Shown here one piece after another: positions 3,177 to 6,472 of a stretch of DNA of 64,000 nt. Source of the DNA: a virus (taxonomy: Duplodnaviria; Heunggongvirae; Uroviricota; Caudoviricetes); IMG/VR virus record IMGVR_UViG_3300035034_002381, positions 1 to 64,000 of that record; one strand, 5' to 3'. The notes under the pieces are model-generated. The model saw nothing but the letters and a program-made list of their open reading frames with translations, had not been told where the DNA came from and ran no database searches. The position numbers and the translations under genes are program-made. How positions within the stretch are numbered: the first letter of the stretch is position 1; every line of letters begins with the position of its first letter.

Positions 3177-3339
3177 AAGTTTCTGTCTCTGGGAGACCTA
3201 ACACTGATGATGACAAGCGTCTTGAAAACCTATTTAATCCATAAACTTGGGAAGAAAATGAGAGTGAGTAACTCGAATGAATCGAATGTATGATTCAAAA
3301 GGTATTGGTAGGTTAATTCTTATCAATACCTCTAAAATT

Positions 3340-3420
3340 CTTCTTAGAATCCATAAAACTTAGCTCATTGGTTGGGCATTTGTATAAGAACAAAAGGAGC
3401 GGTTCAATTCCGTAGACTAG
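3340..3420 (+). ncRNA. degenerate tRNA-like element (canonical D-arm TAGCTCATTGGTTGGGCA, weak T-arm GAGCGGTTCAATTCCG, flanking TTCTTCTTAG/CTAGAAGAA pairing)
   Basis: Seen in sequence; no clean cloverleaf. Confidence 0.3.
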
Positions 3421-3431
3421 AAGAATTTAAT

Positions 3432-3556
3432 TGCCGGGTTAGTGTAAGGGTCAACACACGTAAAGTAAACATAGTGAACTTTACGAATCACTTAGAATAA
3501 CTAACTATACAATCCATATGGAGGACGGATAACTGGTTCGAGTCCAGTGCCTGGCA
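3432..3556 (+). ncRNA. tRNA-like RNA with anticodon region replaced by a ~74-nt insertion (Y-RNA/YrlA-like candidate)
   Basis: Perfect 7-bp acceptor GCCGGGT/GCCTGGC (2 G-U), canonical D-arm GTGT-AAGGGTCA-ACAC, T-arm ACTGG-TTCGAGT-CCAGT. Between D-arm and T-arm lies hairpin CGTAAAG...CTTTTACG plus about 45 nt containing CTTAGAATA. Confidence 0.5.
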
Positions 3557-3567
3557 CAAATTAAATT

Positions 3568-3626
3568 GCAGAGTGGTGTAGTGGCAGCACACGTAAACGC
3601 CGATTAGTGAAGCATTTACGTTACAC
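3568..3626 (+). ncRNA. partial paralog of the 5' half of the preceding tRNA-like RNA (D-arm-like GGTGTAGTGGCAGCAC plus hairpin ACGTAAACG...CATTTACGT with shared TAGTGAA loop motif)
   Basis: Sequence similarity to 3440-3485; no T-arm. Confidence 0.3.
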
Positions 3627-3770
3627 TAAAAAATTGGCAAATCTCGTTCAAAAGAAATTTTCAAATGTAACAACAGAAATTGAAGATGTTGATGAATGGG
3701 TATATTTATATGTAAGAATTTAAAACTTTTTTCAAACTAAAGAATATAAAGAACAATAATACCAATAAAA

Positions 3771-3880
3771 ATTCGACTTAGAATACCTAAAACTAAAGTT
3801 TAAATTAGCTCATTGAGCATATTTTTTTTATAAATACGGTCTAGGTTAATCCCTAGAAATTCAAACGTTTAGTCGAATTT
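3771..3880 (+). ncRNA. degenerate tRNA-like element (outer stem AATTCGACT/AGTCGAATT, D-arm-like TAGCTCATTGAGCAT, T-arm-like TCTAGG-TTAAT-CCTAGA)
   Basis: Seen in sequence; contains CTTAGAATA motif. Confidence 0.3.
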
Positions 3881-3901
3881 TTATTGGTTTTTTAAAATAT
3901 T

Positions 3902-3975
3902 GCGGGGTGGACTGGAGTTGGATCCAGCTTGGTCTCATAAGCCAAATCACGGGAGTTCGAATCTCTCCCCCGCTA
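3902..3975 (+). tRNA. tRNA, anticodon CAT (third CAT tRNA; Met/Ile2 type)
   Basis: Acceptor GCGGGG/CCCCGC, D-arm CTGG-AGTTGGAT-CCAG, anticodon stem TTGGT/GCCAA with loop CTCATAA, T-arm GGGAG-TTCGAAT-CTCTC. Confidence 0.65.
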
Positions 3976-4280
3976 CTTGTTAATAGGCATTTTATCAGTA
4001 ACACTGGAAGTTTTGGCCGAATAAATTAAAAAGTAAAATGTGTGTTCGTGTGTTAGTAAAGAGCTGCACGAATTAAATTTAATAAGTTCTGACTAGTGGT
4101 TTCGGTTTAATAGGGAAAGATACTTACCACTGAAAAAACTAAAATGTATACCCTGTAGATTTTCAATATTTATCTAACTAAATATTGCGTGTTAGAAAGT
4201 TCTAGATTAACTGTGCACAGGTTATTTAGTTCTTATAAATTTTAGAATGCACTTAACAATGTAGCGTTAATCTAAAAAAT

Positions 4281-4354
4281 GCCTCGGTAACTCAGTTGGT
4301 TAGAGTATCTGCTCGACATGCAGAAAGCCACAGGTTCGAATCCTGTTCGGGGTA
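4281..4354 (+). tRNA. tRNA, probable anticodon GAC (Val)
   Basis: Acceptor GCCTCGG/TCGGGGT (G-U rich), D-arm ACTC-AGTTGGTT-AGAGT, anticodon stem TCTGC/GCAGA with loop TCGACAT, T-arm ACAGG-TTCGAAT-CCTGT. Confidence 0.6.
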
Positions 4355-4385
4355 CTTATTCTACTTAGAATACTTAAACTTTATA

Positions 4386-4403
4386 AATTGGTTCGATTCC
4401 AAT
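4386..4403 (+). other. isolated T-arm-like hairpin AATTGG-TTCGATT-CCAATT (tRNA fragment) preceded by CTTAGAATA motif
   Basis: Seen in sequence. Confidence 0.3.
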
Positions 4404-4528
4404 TTTTATTGGTCTTTTTCTGTCAATTAAGTATCAAATAAATTTTTAATATATTGATTGATTTGAATATATTAAACAACCTCTCTTAGAAAATCTAAGT
4501 TAGAGAAGTTAAATCATCAAAAACAAAA

Positions 4529-6472
4529 ATGATGTCTACAAAAACAAAATCTTTATCAAAAGAAAGAGTTGCCTCTGTTTCAGGAGATAAACCAAGACTC
4601 CCAAGAACTCTTGAAACTCTTCAAGGTTTAAGAACAGCTCAAGGATTATCTGACGCGCAAATTGCGAATATGTTAGATAACGCATTATCAGAAACTTCAA
4701 GTAACCATATTATATATGTTCTTGAAAGATTAATGTTACACATTGGTGATGTGAGTCGACAACACAATATGTTGAAAGAATTGGGAATTAATTCTAAATC
4801 TGGTGGCGCACAAGAACGTGGGGTATTCCGATCTATTTTACGATGGTGGGAAAAAACTTTGCCTGAATCATTTGCAGAAAATCTTCGAGTATTCGCTGAA
4901 TTCTCAGTTTTGGAAAACTTGATGTTTTATGAACTTAAAACTGAAAGAGCAACTGGAAAATTAATTGGAAAGGAAATTTTGTTTCCTATGCCAAGTAAAG
5001 TACATGAATTTCTAGCGAACGAAATTCACAAAAATAGAAATGTGAATCTTATTGCTAAGCATTTACCAAAATATGACACTGGTAAAAGTCGAACCACTAA
5101 GAAAACCATGCATATTAAAGACGGTAAGGATAGTTTCATGTGGAAACTTCCTGAAGGTAAAGCTTGGGTTAAATTAAATGGTGATCTAATCGAAGGAGAA
5201 TCTGTTAAGATTACTCAAGGTGATGTAGTTTCATATCCTCGTGATAAATCTTCACATGTTTTAGAAAAACAAAGATTCGTTAATTCTTGGATTTCTAGTT
5301 TCTGTAAAGTTATGGGATGGTCAATTACTGATTATAACAATTTCCGTAAACAACAAAACACACCGGAACAAAAATTCTCAAGTAAACGTGTTTTAAACAT
5401 GCCGAAATCAGATTTCTGGAAAATGCTTGATGGTTTGACTTCTGGTCAAAGATACAGAGTTTCTAGAATGTTAGATTTCAATGCGGAAAAGTGGGGAGAA
5501 TTACCGAAATGGTATGATTTGTGGGAAGGTAACCAAGAAAAAGTAGCCGATAAACTTCGACAAGCTGCAGCTGATGGTGATACTGAAGCAACAGAAAAAT
5601 TGAAGAAAGAATTCAAGGTTAAATCTACTGGAAAAAACACTGTTGATTTATTGAAAGATATGTTAACAGGTAATCATGACGATAGATTCATTAACAACAC
5701 TTATCAATCTATGATTGAGAATATGGATATTGTTGCGAATGTTTTTCCAGTAATTGATGGTTCCGCATCTATGGATTGCCAAATTGGTGGAGGATGGAGT
5801 CCTCGAAGTTCTCGAAGTTCTACGGATAGACAACTTTCAAATAGAGCTGTCGCATATGCTATGGCAATTGCATTTTCTACTAGAAACCCAGTACCAGGAT
5901 TCCGTAACACGTTCGGATGGTTCTCCAGAAACTTTCACATTGTTGGAAAATCTAAGTATGTGAACAATGCACCTAATCAATACGTTGATTCTGGAAGTTA
6001 TACTAAAAAGGTTAATGAGTTCAATGTTTTATCTGAAACTAATACTTTCACTGAAAACTACTCAAACTTGAGAAAATCTGATCCAGGAGAAATATCATCT
6101 ACAAATATGGGTTCTGTGATTACTCACTTCACAAATTTAGTAGAAACTGGTAAATTTCATGTTGAGGATCTTCCATCTGCGTTACTTTTTATCACAGATA
6201 ATGAAAACAACACAGGAATTAGTCCGAAGGAAGCGTTGGCAATAGCTAACAAAATTGGATGGTCTCCATTGGTTATTTTCTGGGGGTTAACTAAAGTTCC
6301 AAGCAACATGATGAATCAGTATAAGGGAATTCCTAACTGCTTACTTGTTGGAGGATTTAATGAATCAGTACTTTCACAAGTACTTAGGGGTATTAAATCT
6401 GGTTCAGTTGATCCAGAGGATGAAATCTGGAGTATTGTCGAAAATAAAAGATATGCAGTAATTACTGAGTAA
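4529..6472 (+). CDS. Ro60/TROVE-like protein with C-terminal vWA domain (Rsr-like), putative
   Basis: 647 aa. vWA MIDAS motif VIDGSASMD at about aa 408, then AYAMAIAFSTRN, LLFITDNENNTG and LVGGFNESVLSQVL, which I recall as resembling the Ro60 vWA segments DVSGSM, AAAMCMVVTRTE, FIVFTDNETFAG and MCGFDTGALDVI. About 400 aa N-terminal non-vWA region. Gene lies immediately downstream of tRNA-like ncRNAs. Confidence 0.5.
   Translation: MMSTKTKSLSKERVASVSGDKPRLPRTLETLQGLRTAQGLSDAQIANMLDNALSETSSNHIIYVLERLMLHIGDVSRQHNMLKELGINSKSGGAQERGVFRSILRWWEKTLPESFAENLRVFAEFSVLENLMFYELKTERATGKLIGKEILFPMPSKVHEFLANEIHKNRNVNLIAKHLPKYDTGKSRTTKKTMHIKDGKDSFMWKLPEGKAWVKLNGDLIEGESVKITQGDVVSYPRDKSSHVLEKQRFVNSWISSFCKVMGWSITDYNNFRKQQNTPEQKFSSKRVLNMPKSDFWKMLDGLTSGQRYRVSRMLDFNAEKWGELPKWYDLWEGNQEKVADKLRQAAADGDTEATEKLKKEFKVKSTGKNTVDLLKDMLTGNHDDRFINNTYQSMIENMDIVANVFPVIDGSASMDCQIGGGWSPRSSRSSTDRQLSNRAVAYAMAIAFSTRNPVPGFRNTFGWFSRNFHIVGKSKYVNNAPNQYVDSGSYTKKVNEFNVLSETNTFTENYSNLRKSDPGEISSTNMGSVITHFTNLVETGKFHVEDLPSALLFITDNENNTGISPKEALAIANKIGWSPLVIFWGLTKVPSNMMNQYKGIPNCLLVGGFNESVLSQVLRGIKSGSVDPEDEIWSIVENKRYAVITE

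What the first reader, a model, noticed from the sequence alone, without database searches (positions are those of the whole stretch)
3180..6472. Candidate phage Ro60 (Rsr)-like protein next to a block of tRNA-like noncoding RNAs: possible Y-RNA/YrlA-type RNP module
The 647-aa ORF at 4529-6472 has a C-terminal vWA domain with a DxSxS MIDAS motif (VIDGSASMD). Its flanking segments (AYAMAIAFSTRN, LLFITDNENNTG, LVGGFNESVLSQVL) resemble the Ro60/TROVE2 vWA region as I recall it, behind a ~400-aa N-terminal domain of TROVE-like size. The 1.35 kb upstream (3180-4528) has no ORFs. It contains two canonical tRNAs, a tRNA-like RNA whose anticodon arm is replaced by a long insert (3432-3556), and partial or degenerate tRNA-like copies. 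In bacteria and mycobacteriophages, rsr is typically adjacent to Y RNAs, and YrlA-class Y RNAs mimic tRNA (acceptor, D-arm and T-arm) with a non-anticodon module. This layout has not, to my knowledge, been described for phages of Bacteroidetes.
Basis: partly seen in the sequence, partly recalled or inferred. Interest (0 to 1): 0.85.

Follow-up and report, generated by a model that had tools for sequence, protein, structure and literature searches.

The report
Ro60-like phage protein with Y-like RNAs
A large T4-like phage encodes a very distant structural relative of the ring-shaped RNA-binding protein Ro60 directly behind a cluster of small tRNA-shaped RNAs that share a helix-plus-UAGAAU signature not found in Rfam, which looks like a new version of the Ro/Y-RNA particle known from animals, bacteria and a few phages.

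Summary
ORF 4529-6472 is real and has an invariant DGSxS MIDAS motif. The 1.35 kb upstream is non-coding and packed with tRNAs and tRNA-like RNAs.

What I found instead is a conserved module. A long-range helix (P1) ends in CU and is followed immediately by UAGAAU plus an A-rich run. P1 encloses tRNAs, acceptor-less tRNA-like domains or circularly permuted tRNA-like domains.

Of 142 motif copies in related loci, 44 have a perfect P1 of at least 8 bp (0.65 expected). Density peaks at 3.4 per kb just upstream of the gene, against about 0.25 per kb elsewhere.

Distant homologues (23% identity) keep the array with the motif changed to UACAAU/UAUAAU. One such module, and two RNAs beside a Klebsiella-phage DUF2828 gene, match Rfam YrlA over the model's full length, below its gathering score.

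Best reading: a divergent phage Ro/Y-RNA-like RNP (confidence about 0.5). The main rival is a tRNA-island processing or promoter signal.

The parts
2715..3176 (+). Gene X: a 153-aa ORF conserved immediately upstream of the RNA array. Function unknown. The model is a small alpha/beta domain followed by a long C-terminal helix.
   Evidence: Homologues at 42-53% identity sit in the same position in L001, L003, L004 and L007. Eight further homologues were found. It has no hit in Pfam or NCBIfam and only a marginal PHROG hit. The AF2 model has pLDDT 73 and no significant PDB match.
3335..3428 (+). UAGAA module A. P1 helix 3335-3344 / 3419-3428 (10 bp), CUUAGAAU at 3343-3350, then a D-arm, an anticodon-like arm and a T-arm, with P1 taking the place of the acceptor stem (Yrn1-like order).
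   Evidence: Anchored stem. The MFE and centroid fold show P1 plus three arms.
3433..3556 (+). It has a 7-bp acceptor stem, a D-arm, an 8-bp hairpin in place of the anticodon arm, CUUAGAAU at 3491-3498 in a 46-nt 'variable' region, a T-arm and discriminator A.
   Evidence: Sequence. Fold z = -2.4. Not called by ARAGORN or Rfam tRNA. Insert-bearing 113-123-nt tRNA-model matches that carry the same motif occur in L003, L026, L043, L024, L010 and L029.
3568..3625 (+). Truncated second copy of the same kind of tRNA-like RNA (5' acceptor strand, D-arm and hairpin only).
   Evidence: In the near-identical relative L016 (encoded protein 99% identical) the copy is complete, with motif, T-arm and 3' acceptor strand. 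The window has a roughly 400-nt deletion at 3625/3626.
3626..3723 (+). 3' remnant of a small ORF whose 5' part was lost in the same deletion.
   Evidence: The ORF is intact at L016 1818-2156.
3761..3888 (+). UAGAA module B. An 18-bp P1 (3761-3778 / 3871-3888), CUUAGAAU at 3777-3784, a degenerate D-like hairpin and a T-like hairpin, followed by a U-run.
   Evidence: Inverted repeat I1. Anchored stem. Fold z = -5.6, with 0 of 200 shuffles as stable.
3901..3976 (+). tRNA-Met/Ile2-like (CAU) with an unusual D-arm.
   Evidence: ARAGORN. Rfam tRNA 28.6 bits against a gathering score of 29. A sequence opening like this tRNA (GGCGGGGUGGACUGGAG) follows a module in L032, and a similar opening (GGCGGAGUGG) follows one in L039.
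4281..4355 (+). Canonical tRNA-Val(GAC).
   Evidence: ARAGORN. Rfam 61.6 bits.
4364..4403 (+). CUUAGAAU motif (4364-4371) followed by a lone T-arm hairpin. A fragmentary module without a detectable P1.
4481..4505 (+). Mini-hairpin that carries CUUAGAAA (4485-4492), ending 24 nt upstream of the ATG of the Ro-like gene.
   Evidence: A motif copy 12-140 nt upstream of the gene is seen in most related loci.
4529..6472 (+). Ro60-fold protein of the DUF2828/DUF7788 lineage. It has an N-terminal helical (TROVE-like) domain with an inserted beta (S4-like) subdomain at about residues 185-260, and a C-terminal vWA domain with MIDAS D410-G-S412-x-S414.
6492..6517 (+). Strong intrinsic terminator (11-bp stem, 6 GC pairs, U-run) that closes the RNA-array plus gene unit.
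9366..9488 (+). Circularly permuted tRNA-like module (YrlA-like order). P1 9366-9374 / 9480-9488, CUUAGAAU at 9373-9380, then T-arm, closed acceptor-like hairpin, D-arm and anticodon-like arm (loop CUUGAAA). It sits exactly between tRNA-Ser (ends 9363) and tRNA-Thr (starts 9493).
   Evidence: Alignment with six homologues shows 22 of 27 pairs with compensatory changes and 96.8% of cells paired, against 71.7% in shuffles. The Rfam YrlA match is weak (16 bits, E 0.58).
9678..9819 (+). Tentative: tRNA-Leu(UAG) 9715-9796 flanked by a 10-bp helix (2 G-U pairs) with the motif variant CUUGGAA.
   Evidence: Relaxed scan only. Not followed up.

Best explanation
The gene encodes a ring-shaped RNA-binding protein with the Ro60 fold: a helical TROVE-like domain plus a vWA/MIDAS domain. 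It belongs to the uncharacterised DUF2828/DUF7788 lineage.

The co-oriented 1.35-kb leader is an array of small structured RNAs interspersed with tRNAs. The array and gene end at the terminator at 6492-6517.

Each small RNA is built like a bacterial Y RNA. Its 5' and 3' ends pair to form a closing helix (P1). P1 abuts a conserved purine-rich single-stranded motif, UAGAAU, where canonical Y RNAs have CGAA. The helix encloses a tRNA-like domain, in normal order (as in Yrn1), in permuted order (as in YrlA), or interrupted.

Inferred steps. RNase P and 3'-end processing of the neighbouring tRNAs release these RNAs. The P1/UAGAAU module is the handle bound by the Ro-like protein. The tRNA-like domain recruits tRNA-recognising enzymes or an exoribonuclease, or acts as a decoy. 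The RNP would then serve quality control, maturation or protection of the phage's own tRNA pool.

Shown: the fold, the RNA structures with covariation, and the tight conserved gene-RNA linkage. Inferred: binding, release and biological role.
For: Protein:
- The Foldseek top nine PDB hits are all Ro60.
- The MIDAS motif is invariant.
- phrog_850 'RNA-binding protein'.
- Homology to DUF2828/DUF7788.

RNA:
- 142 + strand against 22 - strand copies of CTTAGAA in 371 kb of related loci.
- A perfect helix anchored exactly at CU/AG: 56 copies at 7 bp or more, 44 at 8 bp or more, 28 at 9 bp or more. Downstream shuffles give 2.75, 0.65 and 0.1. With the anchor moved by +1 the counts fall to 5, 0 and 0.
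- De novo, CT|TAGAA is the junction of 26 of 427 long-range stems; the next most frequent junction occurs 3 times.
- The permuted class has 22 of 27 pairs with compensatory changes, and 0 of 500 shuffles reach the observed values.

Linkage:
- Motif density is 3.4 per kb in the 750 nt upstream of the gene and 1.2 per kb in the next 750 nt, against 0.2-0.37 per kb elsewhere. tRNA density is not peaked there.
- Homologues at only 23% identity (L050, and L051) keep the upstream array, with the motif changed to UACAAU/UAUAAU.

Bridge to known Y RNAs:
- Rfam YrlA matches, all below the gathering score of 69: L050 2723-2844, full model, 34.5 bits, E 1.5e-5; L003 5601-5662, 28.6 bits, E 4e-4.
- Two full-model hits lie just downstream of the DUF2828 gene of Klebsiella phage KP2025: 40.1 bits (E 7e-6) and 34.3 bits (E 3.4e-4).
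- Published phage Ro60 systems also have Y-like RNAs upstream of the gene, with a 5'-3' stem flanking a bulge that carries the CGAA motif (PMC12135203; PMC4201824).
- Module ends coincide with tRNA ends. For example, 9366-9488 lies between tRNAs that end at 9363 and start at 9493.
Against: - No TROVE HMM match for the protein or its family, and no NCBIfam match.
- No Rfam Y_RNA or YrlA hit in 3100-4600 at E up to 10. All YrlA matches elsewhere are below the gathering score.
- The canonical GNCGAA/CGAA Ro-binding motif and the bulged-C helix are absent.
- The motif family TAGAAT/TACAAT/TATAAT looks like a -10 promoter hexamer. It sits 13-15 nt upstream of the 5' end of several genuine tRNAs.
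- The same module flanks or interrupts RNAs that score as good tRNAs with plausible anticodons. A cis-acting role in tRNA expression or processing therefore explains much of the pattern without the protein.
- Some modules lie several kb from the gene.
- There are no expression or binding data, and the host is unknown.
Confidence: 0.5

Rival explanations
1. The P1/UAGAAU module is a cis-acting signal of the phage tRNA island. It would be a leader-trailer processing helix, comparable to the flanking helices of rRNA precursors, that guides an endonuclease or protects precursors. The Ro-like protein would act independently, for example on misfolded or damaged tRNAs, and would simply be encoded in the same island.
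For: - Modules flank genuine tRNAs: L001 tRNA-Gln, L007 tRNA-Arg, L004 and L006 tRNA-Gly, L050 tRNA-Gln and tRNA-Ser.
- They occur among tRNAs several kb from the gene: window 9366-9488, and L001 9585 and 12357.
- DUF2828 genes of cultured Klebsiella and Campylobacter phages also sit in or beside tRNA clusters.
Against: - Most tRNAs in these islands have no module. In the window, modules flank at most 1 of 21 tRNAs: none certainly, and only the tentative variant-motif helix around tRNA-Leu 9715-9796.
- Module density peaks directly upstream of the gene, not where tRNAs are densest.
- Many payloads are not tRNAs at all (short two-hairpin payloads, acceptor-less or permuted domains).
- P1 is 7-10 bp, too short for a classical RNase III site.
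Confidence: 0.25
2. CTTAGAAT (and CTTACAAT/CTTATAAT in relatives) is a phage-specific promoter of the -10 type that drives tRNAs, small RNAs and the Ro-like gene. The inverted repeats would be secondary.
For: - TAnAAT matches the -10 consensus, and only the least-constrained third base varies between lineages.
- Strong strand bias.
- A fixed distance of 13-15 nt to tRNA 5' ends.
- One copy lies 12-140 nt upstream of the gene in most loci.
- L003 encodes a sigma-70-type factor just upstream.
Against: - A promoter does not explain why the 7-18 nt immediately upstream of the motif are perfectly complementary to a segment 40-180 nt downstream. This holds in 44 of 142 copies at 8 bp or more, against 0.65 expected. 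The boundary is sharp and the helix sequences covary.
- No -35 element at sigma-70 spacing, and none of the sites was called by the promoter scan.
- The motif is fixed (G) within a lineage.
- In the 64-kb window, copies outside the tRNA/RNA island lie within or at the very end of ORFs rather than in a promoter-like position.
- The motif sits inside the anticodon-loop or variable region of otherwise continuous tRNA-like RNAs.
Confidence: 0.1
3. The permuted, interrupted and helix-flanked units are real tRNA genes. The module would then be a splicing or permutation signal, functionally analogous to the archaeal and algal bulge-helix-bulge motif. It would be removed, or left as an open variable arm, to give functional tRNAs.
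For: - Permuted units keep canonical 7-nt anticodon loops with U33 and a purine at 37 (CUUGAAA and similar), 7-bp acceptor-like stems, class-II-type D-arms and T-loops.
- The Rfam tRNA model scores insert-bearing units at 44-55 bits, with the insert placed in the anticodon loop.
- The window has no conventional tRNA-Ser(UGA), while the permuted unit at 9366-9488 carries UGA.
- M. smegmatis YrlA is cut by RNase P and receives CCA (PMC4201824).
Against: - Insertion points vary: position 26, the anticodon loop and the variable region.
- No splicing endonuclease or RNA ligase was found among the roughly 45 window ORFs scanned.
- Many payloads lack an acceptor stem or a T-arm.
- L001 has both a normal tRNA-Ser(UGA) and a permuted unit.
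- Permuted tRNA genes are, as far as I know, unknown in bacteria and phages.
Confidence: 0.1
4. There is nothing functional: a decaying tRNA array next to a generic vWA protein.
For: One copy in the window is a deletion remnant. Several elements are degenerate.
Against: The module and its covariation are conserved in more than 40 loci and across protein divergence down to 23% identity. The fold matches Ro60 over both domains, not the vWA domain alone.
Confidence: 0.03

Closest known systems
Ro60/Rsr with Y RNAs (YrlA, Yrn1) in bacteria and phages: mycobacteriophages, Caulobacter phage CcrColossus, Bacillus phage G, Thermus phage phiLo (PMC4201824, PMC12135203)
   Same: - Two-domain fold: a helical ring plus vWA/MIDAS.
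- Small RNAs encoded next to the gene, upstream as in phiLo.
- The RNAs have a closing 5'-3' stem, a conserved purine-rich motif at the stem/bulge junction, and a tRNA-like domain.
- Both arm orders are present, as in YrlA against Yrn1.
   Different: - No TROVE HMM match.
- An inserted S4-like beta subdomain.
- The RNA motif is UAGAAU (UACAAU/UAUAAU in relatives), not GNCGAA/CGAA.
- Many module copies per locus in relatives (up to about 8) and at least five motif copies here, rather than 1-2 RNAs.
- Modules also flank or interrupt apparently real tRNAs.
- Rfam YrlA is matched only below its gathering score.
- Embedded in the tRNA island of a T4-like phage.
DUF2828 (PF11443) + DUF7788 (PF25043) proteins, PHROG 850 'RNA-binding protein', for example in Klebsiella phage KP2025 and Campylobacter phage CP81
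   Same: Detectable homology over both domains (hhalign 98.8%). The gene lies in or beside a phage tRNA cluster. In KP2025 it is adjacent to YrlA-like RNAs.
   Different: The window protein does not reach the Pfam thresholds. It is about 130 aa longer, with insertions including residues 194-260. Identity to cultured-phage members is 21-23% over half its length. The RNA motif also differs: KP2025 repeats CAGCAA.
Circularly permuted and split tRNA genes of Cyanidioschyzon merolae and archaea (own knowledge; reviewed in PMC4090602)
   Same: The 3' half (T-arm and 3' acceptor strand) is encoded upstream of the 5' half. The termini pair in a helix.
   Different: No bulge-helix-bulge motif was recognised and no splicing endonuclease was seen. 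The acceptor is closed by a short loop, as in YrlA. No evidence of maturation.
Small stable RNAs in the T4 tRNA gene cluster (species 1 and 2; own knowledge)
   Same: tRNA-sized non-tRNA RNAs co-transcribed and co-processed with phage tRNAs in a T4-type phage.
   Different: No known protein partner or shared motif. No sequence comparison was made here.

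Membership tests
Ro60 / TROVE (PF05731 + PF25045) | Sequence match to the TROVE domain HMM | tested here: not met
   No Pfam hit for the window protein at E up to 1, apart from a spurious DUF5344 hit. No TROVE hit at E up to 0.1 in any of 35 family members; vWA_Ro60 hit in 1 of 35 at E 0.0046. 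No PDB sequence hit.
Ro60 / TROVE (PF05731 + PF25045) | Fold: N-terminal alpha-helical repeat domain plus C-terminal vWA domain | tested here: met
Ro60 / TROVE (PF05731 + PF25045) | MIDAS motif DxSxS in the vWA domain | tested here: met
   D410-G-S412-A-S414, invariant across 35 homologues.
Ro60 / TROVE (PF05731 + PF25045) | Binds Y RNA on the outer surface and single-stranded 3' ends in the central hole | not testable with these tools
   Needs EMSA, RIP or a structure.
DUF2828 / DUF7788 | Pfam HMM match above the gathering score | tested here: not met
   No hit for the window protein. DUF2828 and DUF7788 each hit 1 of 35 members weakly.
DUF2828 / DUF7788 | Profile-level homology over both domains | tested here: met
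   The family profile finds DUF2828+DUF7788 proteins at E 1e-14 to 1e-19. hhalign gives 98.8% probability, E 9e-17, 425 columns.
YrlA (RF02553) / bacterial Y RNA | Covariance-model score at or above the gathering score (69 bits) | tested here: not met
   No hit at E up to 10 in 3100-4600. Window 9397-9450: 16 bits, E 0.58. Relatives: L003 28.6 bits and L050 34.5 bits over the full model.
YrlA (RF02553) / bacterial Y RNA | Closing 5'-3' stem that encloses T-arm, acceptor-like stem-loop and D-arm in that order | tested here: met
Window 9366-9488 and six homologues: 27 pairs, 22 with compensatory changes.
YrlA (RF02553) / bacterial Y RNA | Ro-binding 5'-strand motif GNCGAAN0-1G / CGAA | tested here: not met
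   The conserved junction motif is CU|UAGAAU. In relatives it is UACAAU/UAUAAU.
YrlA (RF02553) / bacterial Y RNA | Encoded adjacent to the Ro gene | tested here: met
   Motif density is 3.4 per kb within 750 nt upstream, against about 0.25 per kb background, in 18 loci.
tRNA (RF00005), for 3433-3556 | Detected by a tRNA covariance model or ARAGORN, with a 7-nt anticodon loop | tested here: not met
   Not called. An 8-bp stem with an 11-nt loop replaces the anticodon arm.
Permuted tRNA genes (C. merolae type) | Bulge-helix-bulge at the junction and maturation to a functional tRNA | not tested
   I did not search for BHB geometry. No endonuclease or ligase was seen among the ORFs scanned.

The most novel reading that the evidence does not exclude
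The P1/UANAAU-flanked units are real, unconventionally organised tRNA genes: circularly permuted, interrupted or 'caged'. The Ro-like protein would be the platform on which they are matured or held together. That would make them the first permuted or split tRNA genes in a bacterial virus, possibly working as two-piece tRNAs whose long variable arm is the open P1 helix.
Probability: 0.1. Interest if true: 0.95.

Novelty: new variant of a known kind. Interest (0 to 1): 0.68.

Why it matters
Ro60/Y-RNA particles are conserved from bacteria to humans, yet their function is still poorly understood. Phage versions have only just begun to be characterised (Thermus phage phiLo, 2025).

If this reading is right, three things follow.
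- The uncharacterised DUF2828/DUF7788 family, which my own recollection (not checked here) also places in eukaryotes, gets a testable function as a Ro-like RNA-binding protein.
- It defines an RNA handle not represented in Rfam (P1 plus UANAAU), with dozens of natural sequence variants. The motif differs between the protein lineages sampled here, which gives ready material for dissecting protein-RNA recognition.
- It ties Ro-like RNPs directly to the large tRNA islands of big phages. That suggests a role in tRNA quality control or in evading host tRNA-targeting defences.

The permuted tRNA-like units also raise the possibility of non-canonical tRNA gene organisation in phages.

Tried and rejected
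Searches with no informative result:
- Pfam, NCBIfam and PDB sequence searches of the protein.
- Megablast of window 1-12000 against GenBank phages: no match.
- tblastn against GenBank phages: only marginal DUF2828 hits at E about 1e-3.
- GTDB genomes: a single 2.2-kb MAG contig, so no host clue.
- Rfam on 3100-4600 at E up to 10: only the two tRNAs and noise.
- Gene X: AF2 model of moderate confidence, no significant PDB match. The ORF upstream of the distant homologue in L050 is not detectably related to it.

Tools and papers that were unavailable:
- The Burroughs and Aravind RNA-repair paper could not be fetched.
- No paper in the library discusses the function of DUF2828.

Analyses that did not work or were set aside:
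- MAFFT alignment of the class-1 modules left the 3' P1 strand unaligned, so I did not run covariation on it.
- I considered group I introns (the inserts are too small), known self-cleaving ribozymes (no Rfam hit), RNase III sites (P1 too short), MITE-like inverted repeats (the helices differ in sequence but stay complementary) and N4-type hairpin promoters (the loops are 40-180 nt). I set all of these aside.

Other:
- RNA ligase or RtcB was not found among about 45 window ORFs scanned. A 3'-5' exoribonuclease, a PNK-like kinase/phosphatase and an S1-domain protein are present 28-58 kb downstream.

Full report
**Observation.** The 647-aa ORF at 4529-6472 (+) is present. It contains VIDGSASMD and the three other quoted segments. 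In an alignment of 35 homologues, D410, G411, S412, S414 and D557 are invariant.

The 1.35 kb upstream has only ORFs of 47 aa or fewer, and these overlap tRNA-like sequence. ARAGORN finds 21 tRNAs in the window, in three groups: 229-1094, 3901-4355 and 9277-10979. The gene therefore sits in the middle of a tRNA island.

tRNA-Val(GAC) at 4281-4355 is canonical. tRNA-Met(CAU) at 3901-3976 is borderline in Rfam, at 28.6 bits against a gathering score of 29.

Positions 3433-3556 have a 7-bp acceptor stem, a D-arm and a T-arm, with about 75 nt in between. It folds into a cloverleaf-like shape (z = -2.4). No tRNA finder calls it.

**The protein.** Sequence libraries are almost silent.
- There is no Pfam hit, no NCBIfam hit and no PDB sequence hit.
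- The one hit is phrog_850 'RNA-binding protein', E 8e-16 over residues 343-643.

Ninety-five homologues at 38% identity or more exist. None has a name other than 'hypothetical protein' or a precomputed domain, and almost all come from metagenomes and read-archive assemblies (a few from NCBI metagenome-derived assemblies), on contigs up to 448 kb.

An AlphaFold model built from 35 of them is confident (pLDDT 84, pTM 0.82).
- The nine best Foldseek PDB matches are all Ro60, and all but the weakest align over almost the whole length.

So both domains match Ro60, not only the vWA domain.

A profile of the family reaches 1487 proteins. The more distant ones, at E 1e-14 to 1e-19, carry Pfam DUF2828 plus DUF7788. 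hhalign to one of these gives 98.8% probability, E 9e-17, over 425 columns. That alignment shows residues 194-260 of the window protein as an insertion. Pfam S4 hits in 3 of 35 members, and a weak profile match to ribosomal protein S4 at profile positions 205-239, point to this insertion.

Conclusion: a Ro60-fold protein of the DUF2828/DUF7788 lineage. It fails the TROVE HMM test but passes the fold test.

**The RNAs.** Rfam finds no Y_RNA or YrlA in 3100-4600, even at E up to 10.

Reading the upstream regions of homologous loci showed a recurrent CTTAGAA. The 7-18 nt that end in its CT are complementary to a segment beginning AG, 40-180 nt downstream.

Quantified over 47 loci (371 kb):
- There are 142 distinct + strand copies against 22 on the - strand.
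- A perfect Watson-Crick helix anchored exactly at that junction is 7 bp or longer in 56 copies, 8 bp or longer in 44, and 9 bp or longer in 28.
- With the downstream sequence shuffled, the expected counts are 2.75, 0.65 and 0.1.
- Moving the anchor by +1 collapses the counts to 5, 0 and 0.

Without assuming the motif, CT|TAGAA is the junction of 26 of 427 maximal long-range stems. The next most frequent junction occurs 3 times.

The helices differ in sequence from copy to copy, which is covariation. I call the unit the P1/UAGAAU module: P1 helix, then 5'-UAGAAU and an A-rich run, then a payload, then ...AUU, then the P1 3' strand.

**Payload classes.**
1. A genuine tRNA, or an acceptor-less tRNA-like domain (D, anticodon and T arms), with P1 at the acceptor position. 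In the window these are 3335-3428 and 3761-3888. The latter has an 18-bp P1 and a fold z of -5.6.
2. A circularly permuted tRNA-like domain: T-arm, closed acceptor-like hairpin, D-arm, anticodon-like arm. In the window this is 9366-9488, lying exactly between tRNA-Ser and tRNA-Thr. Seven such units align to a structure in which 22 of 27 pairs show compensatory changes. 96.8% of cells are paired, against 71.7% in shuffles and 36-45% in slid controls.
3. Short payloads of two hairpins. None occurs in the window.
4. Normal-order tRNA-like RNAs with the motif inside the anticodon-loop or variable region. A second copy at 3568-3625 was truncated by a roughly 400-nt deletion relative to the near-identical contig L016, whose encoded protein is 99% identical.

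Further motif copies lie at 4364 (followed by a lone T-arm) and at 4485 (a mini-hairpin 44 nt before the ATG).

**Linkage to the gene.** In 18 loci the motif density is 3.4 per kb in the 750 nt upstream of the gene and 1.2 per kb in the next 750 nt. Everywhere else it is 0.2-0.37 per kb, including inside the gene and in the flanking tRNA clusters. tRNA density is lower next to the gene than further away.

A strong terminator follows the gene at 6492-6517.

Two distant homologues keep an upstream array of modules: P0120 (23% identity to the window protein, locus L050) and P0130 (locus L051). There the motif reads CU|UACAAU or CU|UAUAAU.

**Bridge to known Y RNAs.** According to Chen et al. 2014 (PMC4201824), bacterial Y RNAs combine a Ro-binding stem carrying a 5'-strand motif GNCGAAN0-1G with a tRNA-like domain. 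The arm order differs between YrlA (T, acceptor-like stem, D) and Yrn1.

Thermus phage phiLo Ro60 binds two Y-like RNAs encoded upstream of its gene. These have a 5'-3' stem flanking a bulge with the CGAA motif (PMC12135203).

All the Rfam YrlA matches found here are below the gathering score of 69 bits:
- a permuted unit in L003 (28.6 bits, E 4e-4);
- a full module in L050 over the whole model (34.5 bits, E 1.5e-5);
- the window unit at 9397-9450, only weakly (16 bits, E 0.58).

Among cultured phages, the DUF2828 genes of Klebsiella phage KP2025 and Campylobacter phage CP81 also lie in or beside tRNA clusters. In KP2025 two full-model YrlA matches (40.1 and 34.3 bits) lie just downstream of the gene.

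**Interpretation.** The most economical reading is a divergent phage Ro/Y-RNA-like RNP. The Ro-fold protein would bind the P1/UAGAAU handle of tRNA-mimicking RNAs that are released from the tRNA-island transcript by processing of the flanking tRNAs.

Binding, release and function are inferred, not shown. I put this at about 0.5.

The main rival (0.25) is that the module is a cis-acting processing or 'caging' signal for the tRNA island, independent of the protein. It also flanks real tRNAs and occurs several kb away from the gene.

A promoter reading (0.1) is kept alive because TAGAAT, TACAAT and TATAAT all look like -10 hexamers and lie 13-15 nt upstream of some tRNA 5' ends. It cannot explain the sharply bounded, covarying complementarity of the sequence immediately upstream of the motif. 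No sigma-70-type -35 element accompanies the motif.

The most novel reading (0.1) is that the permuted and interrupted units are real tRNA genes. They keep canonical anticodon loops, and the window lacks a conventional tRNA-Ser(UGA) while the permuted unit carries UGA.

**Context.** The window is from a T4-type phage: Gp23 major capsid protein at 19214-21007 and prohead protease at 17120-19195. It has no close relative among GenBank phages or GTDB genomes. The host is unknown, so the 'Bacteroidetes' remark could not be tested. The only hint is a CHU_C/SprB-domain protein in a related contig.

**Verdict.** The protein is Ro60-like in fold but belongs to the DUF2828 lineage. Novelty: a new variant of a known kind. 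Interest: 0.68.

Noticed in passing
L001 3413-3885: A GOLLD RNA (RF02032, 150.9 bits, gathering score 150) lies in the tRNA island about 2 kb upstream of the Ro-like gene in a related contig. It overlaps a tRNA-Asn call.
   Followed up: no
L047 (Klebsiella phage KP2025, PP919962) 6259-6374 and 6409-6511: Two full-length but sub-threshold YrlA-model matches lie directly downstream of the annotated DUF2828 gene. A repeated CAGCAA motif stands at the start of these and of neighbouring units. The deposited annotation has a 432-nt 'tRNA-Arg' that overlaps the start of the gene.
   Followed up: partly
window 3184-3261, 3625/3626 and 4426: Three indels separate the window from the near-identical contig L016 (encoded protein 99% identical): 78 nt extra in the window, about 400 nt deleted (this removes half a tRNA-like RNA and the 5' part of a small ORF), and 39 nt deleted. 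The RNA array is evolving quickly by indels.
   Followed up: partly
window 1201-2661: A 486-aa SPFH/Band-7 domain protein (Pfam E 8e-6; phrog_11908 E 4e-28) is encoded between the first tRNA block and gene X.
   Followed up: no
window 33398-34009, 35015-35989 and 62635-63840: Other RNA-metabolism genes in the window: an Rv2179c-like 3'-5' exoribonuclease, a P-loop kinase fused to an NT5C-type phosphatase (PNK-like), and a protein with three S1 domains. These are possible effectors for a Ro-like RNP. No RNA ligase was seen.
   Followed up: no
window 229-1094: The first tRNA block contains duplicated isoacceptors in a repeated order (Met, Tyr, Ile, Tyr, Ile, Met). This suggests recent tandem duplication.
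   Followed up: no
L001 10326-10396; L047 4056-4127: Suppressor-type tRNAs sit in these islands: anticodon UUA in L001 (ARAGORN) and CUA in KP2025 (annotated tRNA-Sup).
   Followed up: no
class-2 units in A3 (window 9366-9488, L003, L039): The acceptor-like hairpin of three permuted units carries a C-A or A-C mismatch at the same position (equivalent to tRNA pair 5:68). This was seen by eye in the sequences.
   Followed up: no
L007 4192-6000: The 1.8-kb gap upstream of this homologue holds long GC-rich structured stretches beyond the modules (for example 5100-5990) that match no Rfam family at gathering score.
   Followed up: no
window 26041-26505, 39111-40319 and 29121-32362: A SET-domain protein, a C5 cytosine DNA methylase, and glycosyltransferase and FkbM-methyltransferase genes. 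This is an unusual accessory set for a T4-like phage.
   Followed up: no
L050 2509-2629 and 2634-2770: In tandem arrays of permuted units the Rfam tRNA model also scores 'tRNAs with about 50-nt inserts', formed from the 5' half of one unit and the 3' half of the next. The permuted and interrupted readings are therefore ambiguous in tandem arrays.
   Followed up: partly
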